Position numbers: made by a program. 64,000 bases of DNA from NCBI RefSeq assembly GCF_032062105.1, contig NW_026936003.1, forward strand, positions 434,001 through 498,000, written 5' to 3'. This document shows, in pieces, positions 26,101 through 34,000 of the stretch. This DNA is from Saccostrea cucullata (taxonomy: Eukaryota). Position 1 is the first letter of the stretch. Each line of letters opens with the position of its first letter.

Positions 26101-29100
26101 TGGAATTTCTGGAATTAGTCAATAATAAGTTAAATCTAATTAATTGATTAGTTGAATTTAATTAAAGTCATTTATGCCCATCTTCCTGATACTCGCACTA
26201 GAGGTTGCTCTGTTTGATGTAATATTACACTATCTGATTCAAACACAACACCGTTTAAAGTTGAAAAAGGTCATTTATTACCAAATGACAATTTTGTAAA
26301 ACTATTACAAAAATGAAATGTAGTTTGATAGATTTACATTTATAAACCTTGCAGTGATACCAATATCACTACATGCAACTTCCAAAAAGATCAAAACATT
26401 ACTGTATAAAATTTTTACATCAAAGGTGGGGTAAGGTAAAAATGCCTTACCTACTGAAAAAAGAAATATGGAAAATTATTGTCAAATTATTCACATCAAT
26501 TAAGAACACTATAAATATTTAACTATTAGGGAGAGGTGGGAGGGCTGTTCAAAAATAAACTTGTATTTCCATACAAATATGGCGCTGCCTCTGATTGTAC
26601 TCAATCTGATACTGACGCTGTTGCAAAAAACAAGACTGCTCAAAAGTATTAGAGTTATCTCGCTTGTCCCACTTTCAATACACAAGAAATGGGCATAAAA
26701 TCATTTATGAACATAAATAGCATTTATGCCCATCTTCCTGATACTCGCACTAGAGGTTGCTCTGTTTGATGTAATATTACACTATCTGATTCAAACACAA
26801 CACCGTTTAAAGTTGAAAAAGGTCATTTATTACCAAATGACAATTTTGTAAAACTATTACAAAAATGAAAATGTAGTTTGATAGATTTACATTTATAAAC
26901 CTTGCAGTGATACCAATATCACTACATGCAACTTCCAAAAAGATCAAAACATTACTGTATAAAATTTTTACATCAAAGGTGGGGTAAGGTAAAAATGCCA
27001 CTTACTGCCAATGACAGGCAGATCTGAACTGTCATCAGCAGTAATCCCCACCCAACCCTAAGTGCGAGTCTTAATCTTACTACAATAGAAGTATCCCTAA
27101 AATTCATACAAACTGGATACAAAAAATGAAAAATAACACATTACCAACATACAAAGAAACTATTTCAATCTTGTAAAACAATACAATATTATTATGCATT
27201 GTACACAAACTTTGTTAGATACATAATTACATCAAAACTTTACTACTTCTTGATACAACCAGATGCTCCTGTCATCATGGTTGAAAATGTTTTTTCTAAG
27301 CCAATGTCCTCTTTCCTGAAACAAATAATGTGTCAAACTTGTTCACATATTTTGACAATTGTCCAAACCCTCATATTCTCTATTACTGGTCTGATATTTA
27401 TTTTACAATCAGATGCTCTTGTCACCATGATTGGGTATAATTTGTGACACCAGTAATAAACACACTTGATAGACATCAACCAAATAAATTACTCACTAGT
27501 TTAATATAGGAACTCAACTCAAAACAGATTTTAAATGTCATGAATTATAATCTGACCAGATGCTCTTGTCACCATGATCGGGTATCATTTTGTGACACCA
27601 GTAATTAAAACACTTGATTGCAATCAACCAAACAAGTTAACAAATTACTCACTAGTTTATAGGAACTCAACTCAGAGTAGATTTGAAATGTCATGAATTA
27701 CAATCTGACCAGATGCTCTTGTCACCATGATCAGGATTTTTGTGACACCAGTAATTAAAACACTTGATTGCAATCAACCAAACAAGTTAACAAATTACTC
27801 ACTATTTTATAGGAACTCAACTCAGAGTAGATTTGAAATGTCATGAATTACAATCTGACCAGATGCTCTTGTCACCATGATCAGGTATAATTTTGTGACA
27901 CCAGTAATTAAAACACTTGATTGCAATCAACCAAACAAGTTAACAAATTACTCACTATTTTATAGGAACTCAACTCAGAGTAGATTTGAAATGTCATGAA
28001 TTACAATCTGACCAGATGCTCTTGTCACCATGATCAGGTATAATTTTGTGACACCAGTAATTAAAACACTTGATTGCAATCAACCAAACAAGTTAACAAA
28101 TTACTCACTACTTTATAGGAACTCAACTCAGAGTAGATTTGAAATGTCATGAATTACAATCTGACCAGATGCTCTTGTCACCACGGTCATAACTCATTAC
28201 CTCAACCTCACATCGTGAGCAGTCAAAGGTTTACAAAGGGGATTCGAATGTACTTTTTGAAAGCGTCTGATGACCACCGCCCCATTGCTTTAATTTTTTG
28301 CTCTAGAACTCCATAGGAAAAAGCCGTTGTGGCTGCTCTGATTCTAAAGCTGTGACCTTTATATCATTTACAATCTACCCCACACAAATTTAATGACAAA
28401 TATAACTGATCTGTACAATATTTCCGTGACACCGGTGACCCATCTATGAAAGTAAAAAGAGGACCAGAAGTTGGTTTTTATAATTGAAAATATGTCCATA
28501 GGGCCTGAACAGGACATATTGTGTTATCTTTGCTGTCATTTTTCACATGCAAAGTGTAAGATTGACCTTTACCATGTGGAAAGTTTTCATAGTCAACTCC
28601 AACCCTATTGGGCAGTCTGAAGTATTTTCTTAAAAAATGTACAGATTGTACTGTCCATAAATGACAATTTCTGTCTTTTGAAAATGTAAATTTACAGTGA
28701 AAATGCCACTAAATACACATAAGTACCTGTACAAAATATAAACTTGTAGTACATTGTAAAGAAGCTATCAGCTGTTTAAGAATGATTGGTGTTATAGGTA
28801 ACCTAAGGTCCACTAAGCTTGTCTTTTTCTTGTAACCTTGTAATCATTTTTTCACTAAAAGTTGGGCCTTTCATATTCCTTATCTTATGTTGAATACTTA
28901 ATGCTGAAACATAGGTTGCCAGTAACAATAAGCTATAAACAAAATGATATCTTAAGCTTCTGCTTTTGCTGGTACACCTTTAGTTGGCAAAGCAAAATGA
29001 TGACACCAAACAATAATAATATTCAATTGCCCTTTGATAAGTATTATGAGTTGATGATGCTAATTCCTGATTTAAAAAAAAAATTAATGATAATACATCG

Positions 29101-31006: not shown

Positions 31007-34000
31007 TATAATTGTTTAAATTTAGAAAATATGCATTTTTTAAAATTCTTTAACTTTACAATATTTATCATTACACTTATTGTAAAGCATTGTTCCAAGA
31101 GATATTGTTCTATTTAGGTATGAATTTAAATTAATTACAGTTTTTGCAAAAACCTATGACATCATAAGAGGGTGGAATTACTTTTAAACAATCTGTATAA
31201 TTAAAGTGCACTAGTGAAATAGAGCTACACAATGTATCAAGAAACCATTGCAATATCACTAATTAATTCACTATCCCTGGTGAAGCATTGCGATAGAATT
31301 ATCGCATTTATAACTTGATAGAATTATCAAGATTCAGCACTGATCAAGACGTGATAAAATTATCACTAACTGCGATAGAATTATCGCATTTATAACTTGA
31401 TAGAATTATCAAGATTCAGCACTGATCAAGATGTGATAAAATTATCACTAACTGCGATAGAATTAACGCATTTATGACTTGATAGAATTATCAAGATTCA
31501 GTACTATTGAAGACGTGATAAAATTATCACTAACTGCGATAGAATTATCGCATTTATAACTTGATAATTATCAAGATTCAGCACTGATCAAGACGTGATA
31601 AAATTATCACTTATTGTAAAGCATAGCAATAGAATTATCGCATTTGTAACTTGATAAAATTAACAAGATTCAGCACTAATGAAGACGTGATAAAATTATC
31701 ACTAACTGCGAGAGAATTATCGCATTTATAACTTGATAGAATTATCAAGATTCGGCACTGATCAAGGCGTGATAAAATTGTCACTTATTGTAAAGCATAG
31801 CGATAGAATTATCGCATTTGTAACTTGATAAAATTATCAAGAATCAGTAGTACATTGAAATACCACTAATTGTTCAGTAATGTGCAAAATTACCACTCAT
31901 ACTTGAACATGTGGCAAATTATCACAGGCTCTTCTGCAACTCCTGCAGAAGAAAAAGTTTCCAGACTTACTGTTCTAAGTAAAAATAAATGCTTGATCAC
32001 AAGGGTCCCTTGCTGTATTTCCAACTCTTGGACTGGCTCTCTACAATGCATCTAATATGTGATTAAATAAAAATCTGCTGAAAGTAAAACATTGTGTCAT
32101 ATATGCATAATAAGCTATATATACATGTATTGCCTGTTTCTGAATTTAAATTGCAAATTAACCATAATTGTTATATGGCTAAATGACATACAAAATATTT
32201 ATCTAGCTATCGCTTGTACTATGTATCACAGCACCCCTGATTGCCCTGTAATATTTACATTGCCAATATGGTTCATGTGTACACCGTCACATAAGTTATT
32301 CACTACAGAGTTCCTCAAGCCCTTTAACTTCCAGTACACAACCTGCCTTCTGTTTTTAACGTCTTCTTTTAAAAGTTGATTTGCAAAGACTATTTACTTA
32401 TTATATAAAACAACTTGGCAATGTCTGGTGGAATATCTTGGTAACAACTGACACACATATAATTATCTATAGTGTATTTAAATGATACCGGTTTAAAAAC
32501 AAGTCACATCACACATGTCGCCATTATTTTTGACACAATTTCCCTTACCGAGTCCTCATCAGCCTGCGGCTGATCGATATCGTTTCCCGAAATATGTAAA
32601 ATTAGCTTCTCTTTGAATCTCCTCTTCTAGCACTCTAATGTCCATACCATGCATACTACGGCCTATTCTGTCCCCACTAATCCCAATGACCGAAATCGCT
32701 ACATTTTGTACATTAAATATAATTGTTAGCATGTTGTCTCTATTTCCTCGCATAATGATATAAGCGTCGAATGTGTGAGTCAAATATTAATATAGACATC
32801 TTGATGAAGGAAGAACGCAGTACAAAACAAAAATCGTTGGGACAACAAAGGTCACGAATGATGGAAAATCTGAACGCACGTAGGCCTTCCACGTGTGCCA
32901 GGACCGAATTTCAAGTCTCGTCTTTTAACACTTACAAATGTGCTGAATTCCTTGGAAATCCAAAAGATCACACCACCAGAAGTCCATTAAATGTATTAAT
33001 TGTGCACTGGACACGCTGTAAGCCAACTTGCCTGTTCAAAAATAAACTTGTATTTCCATACAAATATGGCGCTGCCTCTGATTGTACTCAATCTGATACT
33101 GACGCTGTTGCAAAAAACAAGACTGCTCAAAAGTATTAGAGTTATCTCGCTTGTCCCACTTTCAATACACAAGAAATGGGCATAAAATCATTTATGAACA
33201 TAAATAGCATTTATTGAATCAGAGAGAGAATTTTCATATCCGTTAATTGTAACACCGATGGAACATAGTCTCTATTCAAACGGTATTAAAGTGCTGGTTA
33301 TTGAGTGAAGAAGAAATATCGTACTGAGCAAATGGTGGAGTATATGTACTTTTGTGAAGGTGGAAATAGATCAAAAAGACTTACAAATGCTAGAATCATA
33401 TTTACTATTCGAATTGTGAACCGATTTCAAATTATCGTAAGTGTCCTTTTTTCTCAAATAATTGAGCACCTGTAGGAGAAGCGAAAAAATGTGTGGAATT
33501 GACTGTTTACATTTCAAAAGGAATTGATTTTACAAATACTTCATTTCTACTTGTTTTCTCTGTGATGGCTCTTTGAAAGTTGAATTAGCTTCGCCTGGTA
33601 GGCAAATTATCCCACGTTCCCATCTATCGTTGATGCCCTGGCTTGGGGTTGAGGTCTTGTTAACTTAAAACATCTGATTGGTCAACTGGTCAGTCTTAAA
33701 TCTTTCCCCTGATCAACGATGAAGGTCTAAATACTTAATCCTCGATGTTATCTTATGCCCTTTGCACCAATATCGCTTTGCCATTTTTAGCCATGTTAGC
33801 TGTAAAGATTGGAAGTATCTATTCTATTAATTAAGATTAATTAAATTAAGATTTTAAAAATGTTGTCTAATTGATTTAAATTATGGTTATTTAAATGGTC
33901 TCCTCCAGTTGACGTCAAACACAAAAATAAAAGCACGAGATTAACATGCATATTGGACCTCCTTAGCTCATGTACATTCTCTTAATTGACAAAATTTACA

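What the first reader, a model, noticed from the sequence alone, without database searches (positions are those of the whole stretch)
26169..33214. Ngaro-type YR retroelement with pristine split repeats but dead ORFs: a mobile non-autonomous derivative
Seen: A1 and A2 are identical by eye and B1/B2 differ by one A, yet RT has a stop in LPMG and lacks the YLDD region, YR has stops and HSFRIG>HSFRIR, and no gag ORF is evident. Two tandem arrays and a probable MITE sit inside. Established: A1-ORFs-B1-A2-B2 is the Ngaro/PAT layout, and these repeats are regenerated during replication. Inference: the element kept being copied in trans long after its genes died, carrying its cargo.
Basis: partly seen in the sequence, partly recalled or inferred. 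Interest (0 to 1): 0.7.

Follow-up and report, generated by a model that had tools for sequence, protein, structure and literature searches.

The report
Decayed Ngaro-type retroelement in an oyster
This is a 7-kb broken copy of a tyrosine-recombinase retrotransposon in an oyster-like genome whose end repeats are still near-perfect, which suggests, but does not prove, that it was last copied with enzymes borrowed from another element.

Summary
On the minus strand, 26169-33214 has the split-direct-repeat layout A1-[interior]-B1A2-spacer-B2. A1 and A2 are identical at 183 of 183 bases. The B cores (279 and 278 nt) show 0 substitutions and one single-base length difference. The interior holds remnants of RT, RNase H and a tyrosine recombinase in that order, with no methyltransferase. 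They are closest to uncharacterised Saccostrea cucullata proteins. All three are broken: about 7-11 frameshifts, 7-8 stops, several deletions, and no trace of the N-terminal third of the RT ORF. Both tandem arrays are real (153 bp x5.1 and 82 bp x6.6). The "MITE" is not supported. New here:
- B1|A2 share a 7-nt core that also sits at both chromosomal ends, inside a strong palindrome (z -5.6).
- The 5' part holds a broken ORF remnant that may be hydrolase-like rather than gag.

The contrast between decayed genes and unchanged repeats argues that the repeats were renewed long after the genes died. Copying in trans is the best reading (about 0.55). The decisive test, sister copies sharing the same lesions, could not be run because no eukaryotic DNA collection was available. 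This is an ordinary new member of a known kind.

The parts
26169..33214 (-). Whole element, 7046 bp, GC 0.327
   Evidence: Repeat layout. All protein matches lie inside it on the minus strand. Length and GC.
33032..33214 (-). A1, the 5' terminal repeat (183 nt)
   Evidence: 183 of 183 identical to A2, with no extension of identity on either side.
32229..32799 (-). Broken 5' ORF remnant, possibly SGNH/GDSL-hydrolase-like. One broken gene: at least 2 frameshifts and at least 1 stop.
   Evidence: The tool-supported part is 32565-32799. P0024 (80 aa) aligns over 74 of its 80 residues at 70-78% identity, in 2 frames, with 1 stop inside an HSP. The extension to 32229 and the hydrolase reading rest on recalled motif blocks seen by eye, plus a weak Atlas lead (score 0.86). 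Pfam, NCBIfam and PDB gave nothing.
31289..31847 (.). Tandem array, 82-bp unit x6.6. Each unit is built of three sub-units of about 27 bp carrying a GATA-N-AATTATC palindrome.
   Evidence: TRF and family D1. The motif has 24 matches in the window against 3.28 expected, 19 of them in this array.
29937..31288 (.). Unassigned interior, containing a 28-nt A/T tract at 30977-31004
   Evidence: No match to the N-terminal parts of 6 relatives (best E 0.84). No second copy in the window. No target-site duplication for a poly-A-tailed insertion.
28987..29936 (-). RT-RNase H remnant (one broken gene). 4 frameshifts, 3 stops, 2 internal deletions totalling 42 comparator residues. The N-terminal 168 and C-terminal 52 comparator residues have no counterpart.
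   Evidence: Frameshift-aware alignment to P0001 residues 169-522. The RT part is 177 of 210 aligned codons identical and the RNase H part 70 of 102. P0001 carries RVT_1 and RT_RNaseH.
28226..29063 (-). Tyrosine-recombinase remnant (one broken gene). 3-7 frameshifts, 4-5 stops, 4-6 short gaps (16-18 residues), depending on the comparator.
   Evidence: Alignment to P0004 residues 296-589 (166 of 276 identical) and P0006 residues 165-458 (106 of 278). P0006 matches Phage_integrase at E 2.2e-4 and P0004 matches Phage_int_SAM_1 at E 1.1e-3, both below the curated cut-offs. Marginal Cre hits.
27410..28183 (.). Tandem array, 153-bp unit x5.1, starting about 40 nt after the end of the YR remnant. Degenerate units reach 27260.
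   Evidence: TRF at 94% matches. Families D2, D4 and D5.
26721..26999 (-). B1, internal copy of the 3' repeat (279 nt; ragged edge to 27007)
26545..26727 (-). A2, internal copy of the 5' repeat. Overlaps B1 by the 7-nt core.
26683..26740 (.). Imperfect palindrome spanning the B1|A2 junction. One arm lies in B and the other in A.
   Evidence: DNA fold -13.7 kcal/mol. Shuffles average -4.12 +/- 1.71, giving z -5.6. 0 of 200 shuffles fold as well.
26447..26544 (-). Unique spacer between A2 and B2
   Evidence: No similarity to the sequence after A1 or before B1.
26169..26446 (-). B2, the 3' terminal repeat (278 nt; ragged edge to 26456)
33208..33214 (-). 7-nt core ATAAATG at the left chromosomal junction. 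The same 7 nt lie at 26721-26727 (the single shared copy at B1|A2) and at 26169-26175 (end of B2).
   Evidence: Read directly.

Best explanation
This is a decayed, non-autonomous copy of an Ngaro-type (DIRS-order) tyrosine-recombinase retrotransposon. It lies between genes in a Saccostrea-like oyster genome.

Shown:
- The complete repeat scaffold A1-[interior]-B1A2-spacer-B2.
- Remnants of RT, RNase H and YR in one orientation, without a methyltransferase.
- Every one of these genes is broken many times.
- The two repeat pairs are still practically identical.
- The B|A junction carries a 7-nt core that also ends the element on both sides, and it sits in a palindrome.

Inferred:
- The element entered this site as a circular or junction-bearing DNA by conservative recombination. 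The exchange was between the palindromic B|A junction and a target that already held the core. That is why there is one core at each end and no duplication.
- At its last round of copying, the missing outer parts of A1 and B2 were re-made from the internal B1A2 template, which reset the pairs to identity.
- Because the genes carry far more damage than the repeats could have escaped over the same time, that last round happened when the element could no longer make its own enzymes. RT, RNase H and recombinase therefore came from another element in trans.
- The two satellite-like arrays travelled as part of its untranslated regions.
For: Repeats: A is 183 of 183 identical. The B core has 0 substitutions and 1 single-base indel in 278-279 nt.

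Gene content and order: all 17 relatives found match only inside the element, on the minus strand, within outer bounds 28226-29936. P0001 carries RVT_1 and RT_RNaseH. P0004 runs RT end, RNase H and YR in one ORF with no methyltransferase between them. The top 16 PDB hits of P0004 are Cre recombinase, though marginal (E 0.012-0.033).

Decay:
- RT: 2 frameshifts, 1 stop, 2 deletions (42 residues).
- RNase H: 2 frameshifts, 2 stops.
- YR: 3-7 frameshifts, 4-5 stops.
- The N-terminal 168 residues of the RT ORF have no counterpart.

Dating contrast: 7-8 stops in about 588 codons imply roughly 0.095-0.108 substitutions per site. That predicts 87-100 differences in 461 nt of repeat pairs, against 0 observed. 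The 95% upper bound for the repeats is 0.00325 per site per lineage.

Junction: the 7-nt core lies at A1's start, at B2's end, and once at B1|A2. The palindrome has z -5.6, with 0 of 200 shuffles as stable.

Literature (passages read):
- SDR definition and absence of MT in Ngaro: PMC9210276, PMC4157794, PMC8547959.
- A short sequence at the circle junction ends up flanking the element on both sides. The internal region is needed to restore the ends, and DIRS-1 proteins can use supplied cDNA (discussed there under action in trans): PMC7192593.
Against: Only one copy is visible. Nothing else in the 64-kb window matches any part of it.

The protein collections gave no sister fragments. 0 of 10 exact ORFs were present, and the 'near'-length search gave 2 hits at only 49-53% identity. 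No relative was closer than 69% over the 84-residue stop-free piece used as the search query, or 79% over the frameshift-aware alignment. So no candidate partner of the same family was seen. This is a weak test, since gene callers rarely report dead ORFs.

The decay estimate is rough. It uses a uniform-codon constant, comparators that are predicted proteins from other genomes, and frameshift counts that vary with the comparator (3 against 7 in the YR).

B1 and B2 lie only 552 bp apart, where gene conversion is easy.

Regeneration of end repeats is experimentally supported for DIRS-1 only.

Perfect repeats can also be produced by assembly polishing.
Confidence: 0.55

Rival explanations
1. This is an old, immobile dead insertion. 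Its repeat pairs have been kept identical by gene conversion or unequal exchange between the copies, not by a recent round of copying.
For: B1 and B2 are 552 bp apart in a tandem-like B-A-spacer-B arrangement, a geometry that favours conversion. No second copy or partner was found.
Against: Both pairs would have to be converted over their full lengths. That includes A1/A2, which are 6.5 kb apart, with 0 substitutions left in 461 nt where about 87-100 are expected. The neighbouring tandem arrays inside the same element are only 86-94% homogeneous, so local homogenisation is not generally perfect here.
Confidence: 0.2
2. This is an assembly or polishing artefact. The repeats look identical, or the element looks complete, because reads from several copies were collapsed or one repeat copy was used to correct the other.
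For: The only difference between B1 and B2 is a one-base homopolymer length change, a typical sequencing or polishing error type. Nothing in the window can test read support.
Against: The layout is internally coherent. There is one core at each end, a single shared core at B1|A2, a unique spacer, and sharp edges of identity. The window contains no N. Collapse would not create the orderly RT-RNase H-YR remnant.
Confidence: 0.1
3. The element belongs to another branch of the DIRS order rather than to Ngaro proper. One candidate is a PAT-like lineage that lost its methyltransferase. The layout would then be convergent.
For: PMC4157794 (passages read) reports that split direct repeats and methyltransferase loss arose more than once, including a PAT lineage without MT. 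No named Ngaro reference protein came back in any search.
Against: Every structural criterion used in the literature for Ngaro is met (see the membership test). Relatives in cnidarians, arthropods and chordates combine RVT_1 with Phage_integrase and show no MT.
Confidence: 0.1

Closest known systems
Ngaro retrotransposons (DIRS order), as defined by Goodwin and Poulter 2004. That paper was not read; the definition is taken from PMC9210276, PMC4157794 and PMC8547959, passages read.
   Same: Split direct repeats with A1 at the 5' end and B1, A2, B2 at the 3' end, with identical pairs. RT/RNase H is followed by YR on the same strand. No methyltransferase. The internal repeats lie downstream of the YR. 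There is no target-site duplication, but a short sequence is shared by the junction and both ends.
   Different: All genes are broken and no gag is recognisable. A spacer of about 90 nt separates A2 from B2. The shared core is 7 nt here rather than the trinucleotide described for DIRS elements. Two satellite-like arrays lie inside. A possible hydrolase-like ORF lies before the RT, not after the YR as described for amphibian Ngaro (PMC9210276).
SIRE / VIPER of trypanosomes (PMC6681497, passages read)
   Same: This is a YR retroelement with A1...B1-A2-B2 repeats, and a non-autonomous derivative has been described for it. SIRE corresponds to A2 + B2 with its own exclusive internal region, paralleling the A2-spacer-B2 block here.
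   Different: SIRE is a short (about 0.4 kb) element without an interior. VIPER is confined to kinetoplastids (PMC4157794, PMC6681497). The present element keeps a 6-kb interior with gene remnants. That paper leaves open whether SIRE moves at all.
LARD/TRIM-type non-autonomous LTR retrotransposons (recalled; named in PMC8498967 as annotation classes, passages read)
   Same: Terminal repeats are intact, the interior has no coding capacity, and dependence on enzymes of an autonomous relative is presumed.
   Different: Those use LTRs and a DDE integrase. They are defined by many copies sharing a non-coding interior, which could not be tested here.
Tandem-repeat-bearing mobile elements of bivalves. 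Helentron-borne satellite-like arrays: PMC7492417, search listing only. C. gigas satellitome with one satDNA similar to LTR/DIRS: PMC8268682, table passage read.
   Same: Short satellite-like arrays are embedded in a mobile element of an oyster.
   Different: The carriers described are mostly DNA transposons/Helentrons. Periods of 153 bp or 82 bp were searched for by term in PMC8268682 and PMC11136912 and not found.

Membership tests
Ngaro (DIRS order) | Split direct repeats A1-[ORFs]-B1-A2-B2 with A1=A2 and B1=B2 | tested here: met
   A is 183 of 183 identical. The B core has 0 substitutions and 1 indel. The order on the minus strand is A1, interior, B1, A2, spacer, B2. The 88-98-nt spacer between A2 and B2 is an addition to the simplest scheme.
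Ngaro (DIRS order) | RT/RNase H followed by a tyrosine recombinase on the same strand, with the internal repeats downstream of the YR | tested here: met
   Remnants lie at 29936..28987 (RT-RNase H) and 29063..28226 (YR), and B1 starts at 26999/27007. YR identity rests on Pfam Phage_integrase/Phage_int_SAM_1 hits below cut-off in relatives and marginal Cre hits.
Ngaro (DIRS order) | No methyltransferase-like domain | tested here: met
   P0004 passes from RNase H (to about residue 220) to the YR N-terminal domain (from residue 296) with no further Pfam domain. In the window the RNase H and YR remnants abut or overlap, leaving no room for one.
Ngaro (DIRS order) | gag-like first ORF | tested here: inconclusive
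   There is no ORF over 78 aa on the minus strand. Pfam hit nothing credible in any of the 27 ORF pieces. The only conserved remnant in the 5' part resembles P0024, not a known gag.
Ngaro (DIRS order) | RT and YR group with curated Ngaro references in a phylogeny | not testable with these tools
Ngaro / DIRS order | No target-site duplication, and a short sequence at the circle junction found at both ends of the insertion | tested here: met
   ATAAATG occurs once at B1|A2, once at the start of A1 and once at the end of B2. The expected pattern is described in PMC7192593.
PAT-like (DIRS order) | Split direct repeats plus a methyltransferase domain | tested here: not met
   The repeats are present but no MT is found.
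DIRS1-like | Inverted terminal repeats and an internal complementary region | tested here: not met
   The terminal repeats are direct, not inverted.
Non-autonomous (LARD-like) derivative | Several genomic copies sharing the same non-coding or dead interior, plus an autonomous relative with the same terminal repeats | not testable with these tools
   No eukaryotic DNA collection was available. The window holds one copy. The protein look-ups were negative.
SGNH/GDSL hydrolase (for the 5' ORF remnant) | Profile match to a GDSL/SGNH family model | tested here: not met
   Pfam, NCBIfam and PDB gave no such hit for P0024 or for the window pieces. The only support is an Atlas lead at 0.86 and motif blocks recalled from memory.

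The most novel reading that the evidence does not exclude
This copy represents a LARD-like, non-autonomous lineage of Ngaro elements in oysters. The lineage is still being copied by the enzymes of a related element. It spreads two satellite-like arrays as it goes, and it derives from a family whose first ORF is a hydrolase-like gene rather than a recognisable gag. The element would recombine through a palindromic B|A junction with a 7-nt core.
Probability: 0.3. Interest if true: 0.5.

Novelty: new member of a known kind. Interest (0 to 1): 0.3.

Why it matters
Tyrosine-recombinase retrotransposons are rare and their replication is understood mainly from one amoeba element. A dead copy with perfect end repeats would be natural evidence of two things. 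First, that the split repeats of Ngaro elements really are renewed at each round of copying. Second, that these elements can be parasitised by non-coding derivatives, as LTR elements are. It would also add a retroelement route for spreading short satellite arrays in oyster genomes, where such arrays have mostly been tied to DNA transposons. As it stands, this is one ordinary decayed transposon copy.

Tried and rejected
- **Whole-frame translations.** Stop-free pieces were used after that.
- **Pfam on ORF pieces.** Pfam on 27 short ORF pieces gave only two chance-level hits (E 0.097 and 0.023, both below cut-off).
- **Second copy in the window.** DNA self-comparison and 17 proteins found none.
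- **Sister copies through proteins.** 0 of 10 exact ORFs were in the collection. The 'near'-length search gave 2 hits at 49-53% identity. A further cluster look-up could not be made.
- **N-terminal part of the RT ORF.** Six comparators' N-termini were run against 29900-33040, and every hit had E >= 0.84.
- **The 28-nt A tract as the tail of a nested retroposon.** No flanking direct repeat of 8 nt or more was found. Shuffles give one in 161 of 500 trials at k=8, so the reading was rejected.
- **MITE inside the element.** Only weak inverted repeats were found, so it was rejected as unsupported.
- **Hydrolase reading of the 5' remnant.** There was no profile or PDB support, so it is kept only as a lead.
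- **P0023 and P0025.** These came from the representative search. They are long repeat proteins matched in 9 and 5 stretches and were judged spurious.
- **Poly-A signal in B.** One AATAAA lies 111 nt before the end of B, but at 1.56 per kb background this is not informative.
- **Not used.** The bacterial/archaeal genome collection was not scanned, because it cannot hold an oyster element.

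
Full report
**What is there.** The window has no N and is AT-rich (GC about 0.30-0.42). Between 26169 and 33214 the repeat finder gives three perfect or near-perfect direct repeat families:
- 183 nt at 26545-26727 and 33032-33214, 100% identical.
- 150 nt at 26169-26318 and 26721-26870, 100% identical.
- 138 nt at 26309-26446 and 26862-26999, 98% identical without gaps.

Read on the minus strand, this is A1 (33214..33032), a 6-kb interior, B1 (26999..26721), A2 (26727..26545), a unique spacer of about 90 nt, and B2 (26446..26169). 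A script check shows that A1 equals A2 at 183 of 183 bases and that identity does not extend one base further on either side. The B cores have 0 substitutions and one single-base length difference in a homopolymer. Another 8-10 nt at the 5' edge of B match imperfectly.

**The junction.** The sequences of the ends show that B ends and A begins with the same 7 nt, ATAAATG. At the internal B1|A2 junction there is a single shared copy. A1 starts with it next to the flank, and B2 ends with it next to the other flank.

This is the pattern described for DIRS-order elements. [quoted passage not shown] Here the shared stretch is 7 nt.

The junction also lies in a strong imperfect palindrome, with one arm in the end of B and the other in the start of A. 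Folded as DNA it gives -13.7 kcal/mol against -4.12 +/- 1.71 for 200 shuffles, a z of -5.6, and no shuffle does as well. The palindrome is whole only where B is joined to A. My inference is that this is the recombination site of the circular or junction-bearing form. That inference was not tested.

**Genes.** No minus-strand ORF in the interior exceeds 78 aa. Pfam found nothing credible in 27 ORF pieces.

An 84-residue stop-free piece from the RT/RNase H region retrieved 17 longer proteins at E <= 1e-3 out of 35 candidates.
- The best is an uncharacterised Saccostrea cucullata protein (P0001, 574 aa, RVT_1 + RT_RNaseH, 69% identity over the piece).
- P0004 (589 aa, unnamed source) runs RT end, RNase H and a tyrosine recombinase in one ORF.
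- P0006 (S. cucullata) has a Phage_integrase match at E 2.2e-4, below Pfam's cut-off.
- The top 16 PDB hits for P0004 are all Cre recombinase, though marginal (E 0.012-0.033). A two-sequence profile hits the Cre catalytic C-terminus at E 0.093.
- The Atlas places P0004 next to eukaryotic clusters that combine RVT_1 and Phage_integrase.

All 17 proteins match the window only inside the element, on the minus strand, between 28226 and 29936.

**Counting the damage.** This used a frameshift-aware alignment that reports counts and outer bounds only.

| Gene remnant | Window span | Identity to comparator | Frameshifts | Stops | Deletions and gaps |
|---|---|---|---|---|---|
| RT | 29936..29304 | 177 of 210 aligned codons (P0001) | 2 | 1 | 2 deletions, 42 residues in total |
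| RNase H | 29303..28987 | 70 of 102 (P0001) | 2 | 2 | last 52 comparator residues have no counterpart |
| YR | 29063..28226 | 166 of 276 (P0004); 106 of 278 (P0006) | 7 or 3 | 4 or 5 | 4-6 short gaps |

The first 168 residues of the RT ORF of relatives have no counterpart anywhere in 29900-33040. Six N-termini were tried, and the best E was 0.84. No methyltransferase lies between RNase H and YR in the relatives. In the window the two remnants abut, so there is no room for one.

**The 5' part.** A 74-aa ORF there hit an 80-aa predicted protein in the exhaustive representative search (P0024, 67% identity, E 5.9e-8; 3 hits at E <= 1e-3, of which the two long repeat proteins look spurious). P0024 aligns to 32565-32799 on the minus strand in two frames, covering 74 of its 80 residues at 70-78% identity. 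So a real, broken coding remnant begins about 230 nt after A1.

By eye, the three frames down to about 32229 contain stretches resembling SGNH-hydrolase blocks. That is a recollection, not a tool result. The only tool lead is an Atlas hit at 0.86 to a 'GDSL-like lipase' cluster with a mollusc member. Pfam, NCBIfam and PDB give nothing.

Some Ngaro elements are reported to encode an SGNH hydrolase, but after the YR (PMC9210276, PMC7192593, passages read). No gag could be recognised.

**Arrays and other contents.** TRF confirms a 153-bp array (27410-28183, 5.1 copies, 94% matches) starting just after the YR remnant. It also confirms an 82-bp array (31289-31847, 6.6 copies, 86% matches) between the 5' remnant and the RT.

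The 82-bp unit is made of three sub-units of about 27 bp, each with a GATA-N-AATTATC palindrome. The motif occurs 24 times in the window against 3.28 expected. Of these, 19 are in the array, 3 elsewhere in the element and 2 outside it.

A 28-nt A tract at 30977-31004 has no flanking duplication. The proposed MITE is not supported.

Short arrays inside mobile elements are well known in oysters (PMC7492417, listing only; PMC8268682, table passage).

**Surroundings.** On one side lies a fibrinogen-like ORF at 24280-25065 (minus strand). It is 94% identical to S. cucullata fibrinogen-like protein 1 and 69% identical to an Ostrea edulis protein (Fibrinogen_C). The host is therefore a Saccostrea-like oyster.

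On the other side lie two identical tRNA-like genes at 34314-34386 and 34541-34613. The element is intergenic. No exon joining was done for any host gene, and no contig was taken for human.

**How it most likely works.** The scaffold needed for copying and insertion is intact while every gene is dead. Of the 549 single-base changes from sense codons, 23 make a stop. On that basis, the 7-8 in-frame stops in about 588 aligned codons imply roughly 0.1 substitutions per site of unconstrained decay. Over the same time the two repeat pairs (461 nt) should differ at about 87-100 sites, yet they differ at none. The 95% upper bound for their divergence is 0.00325 per site per lineage, a few per cent of the decay seen in the genes.

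The repeats were therefore made alike long after the genes died. The simplest cause is a late round of retrotransposition, in which the ends were rebuilt from the internal B1A2 template with enzymes from another element. This is inference. Renewal of ends from an internal template is shown experimentally only for DIRS-1 (PMC7192593).

The rivals are gene conversion (B1 and B2 are only 552 bp apart), polishing artefacts, and a different placement within the DIRS order.

**What could not be checked.** The decisive descriptive test needs the host genome. It asks for sister copies with the same lesions and arrays, an intact partner with the same A and B, and presence or absence at the orthologous site.
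- A second cluster look-up could not be made.
- Protein-level substitutes were negative but weak.
- Supplementary tables of PMC9210276 and PMC8547959, which list individual Ngaro copies and their repeats, were not available. They might show whether spacers or dead copies with perfect repeats are common.
- Two literature searches for non-autonomous Ngaro or DIRS derivatives (listings, plus passages of PMC6681497, PMC12477816 and PMC8498967) turned up only SIRE/VIPER as a described case. Curated repeat libraries were not searchable here.

**Verdict.** The family assignment is supported on structural criteria. Trans-mobilisation is plausible at about 0.55 but untested. This is a new member of a known kind and of modest interest.

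Noticed in passing
window 34288-34416 and 34515-34643 (tRNA-like genes at 34314-34386 and 34541-34613, minus strand): Two 100% identical 129-nt direct repeats spaced 227 nt apart. Each holds a tRNA-like gene (Rfam tRNA 58.8 bits). ARAGORN reports an odd four-base anticodon loop reading. They lie about 1.1 kb from A1, on the same strand as the element.
   Followed up: partly
window 40310-59321, plus strand: A run of very long ORFs (up to 1127 aa) made of near-identical cysteine-rich modules (Pfam DSL, Teneurin-type EGF). The region has raised GC (0.42). It looks like a giant, recently expanded repeat-protein gene or gene array.
   Followed up: partly
window 513-1322 (+), 9551-10000 (+), 24280-25065 (-): Host ORFs with VWA, C1q and fibrinogen C-terminal domains. 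These are the immune-type gene families that are expanded in bivalves. The fibrinogen-like one is 94% identical to a Saccostrea cucullata protein.
   Followed up: partly
window 35337-35756 and 33551-34063: Two inverted-repeat pairs outside the element. One has 35-nt arms, 89% complementary, 350 nt apart. The other has 31-nt arms, 87% complementary, 451 nt apart. These are better MITE candidates than anything inside the element.
   Followed up: no
window 31289-31847, also 30466-30477 and 30548-30559: The 82-bp array is built from 16-17-bp palindromes around GATA-N-AATTATC (19 motif copies in the array). Further copies lie about 0.8 kb away in the unassigned interior. It reads like an array of sites for a dimeric DNA-binding protein, but nothing was tested.
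   Followed up: partly
window 32229-32799, minus strand: A broken ORF remnant in the 5' part of the element, homologous to an 80-aa predicted protein (P0024). By eye it resembles an SGNH/GDSL hydrolase. If so, the hydrolase sits before the RT, unlike in vertebrate Ngaro.
   Followed up: partly
window 26169-26999: B1-A2-spacer-B2 forms 1.5 copies of a 552-553-bp unit. Unequal exchange here could generate tandem AB arrays or solo AB units like those reported in Cafeteria (PMC8547959).
   Followed up: no
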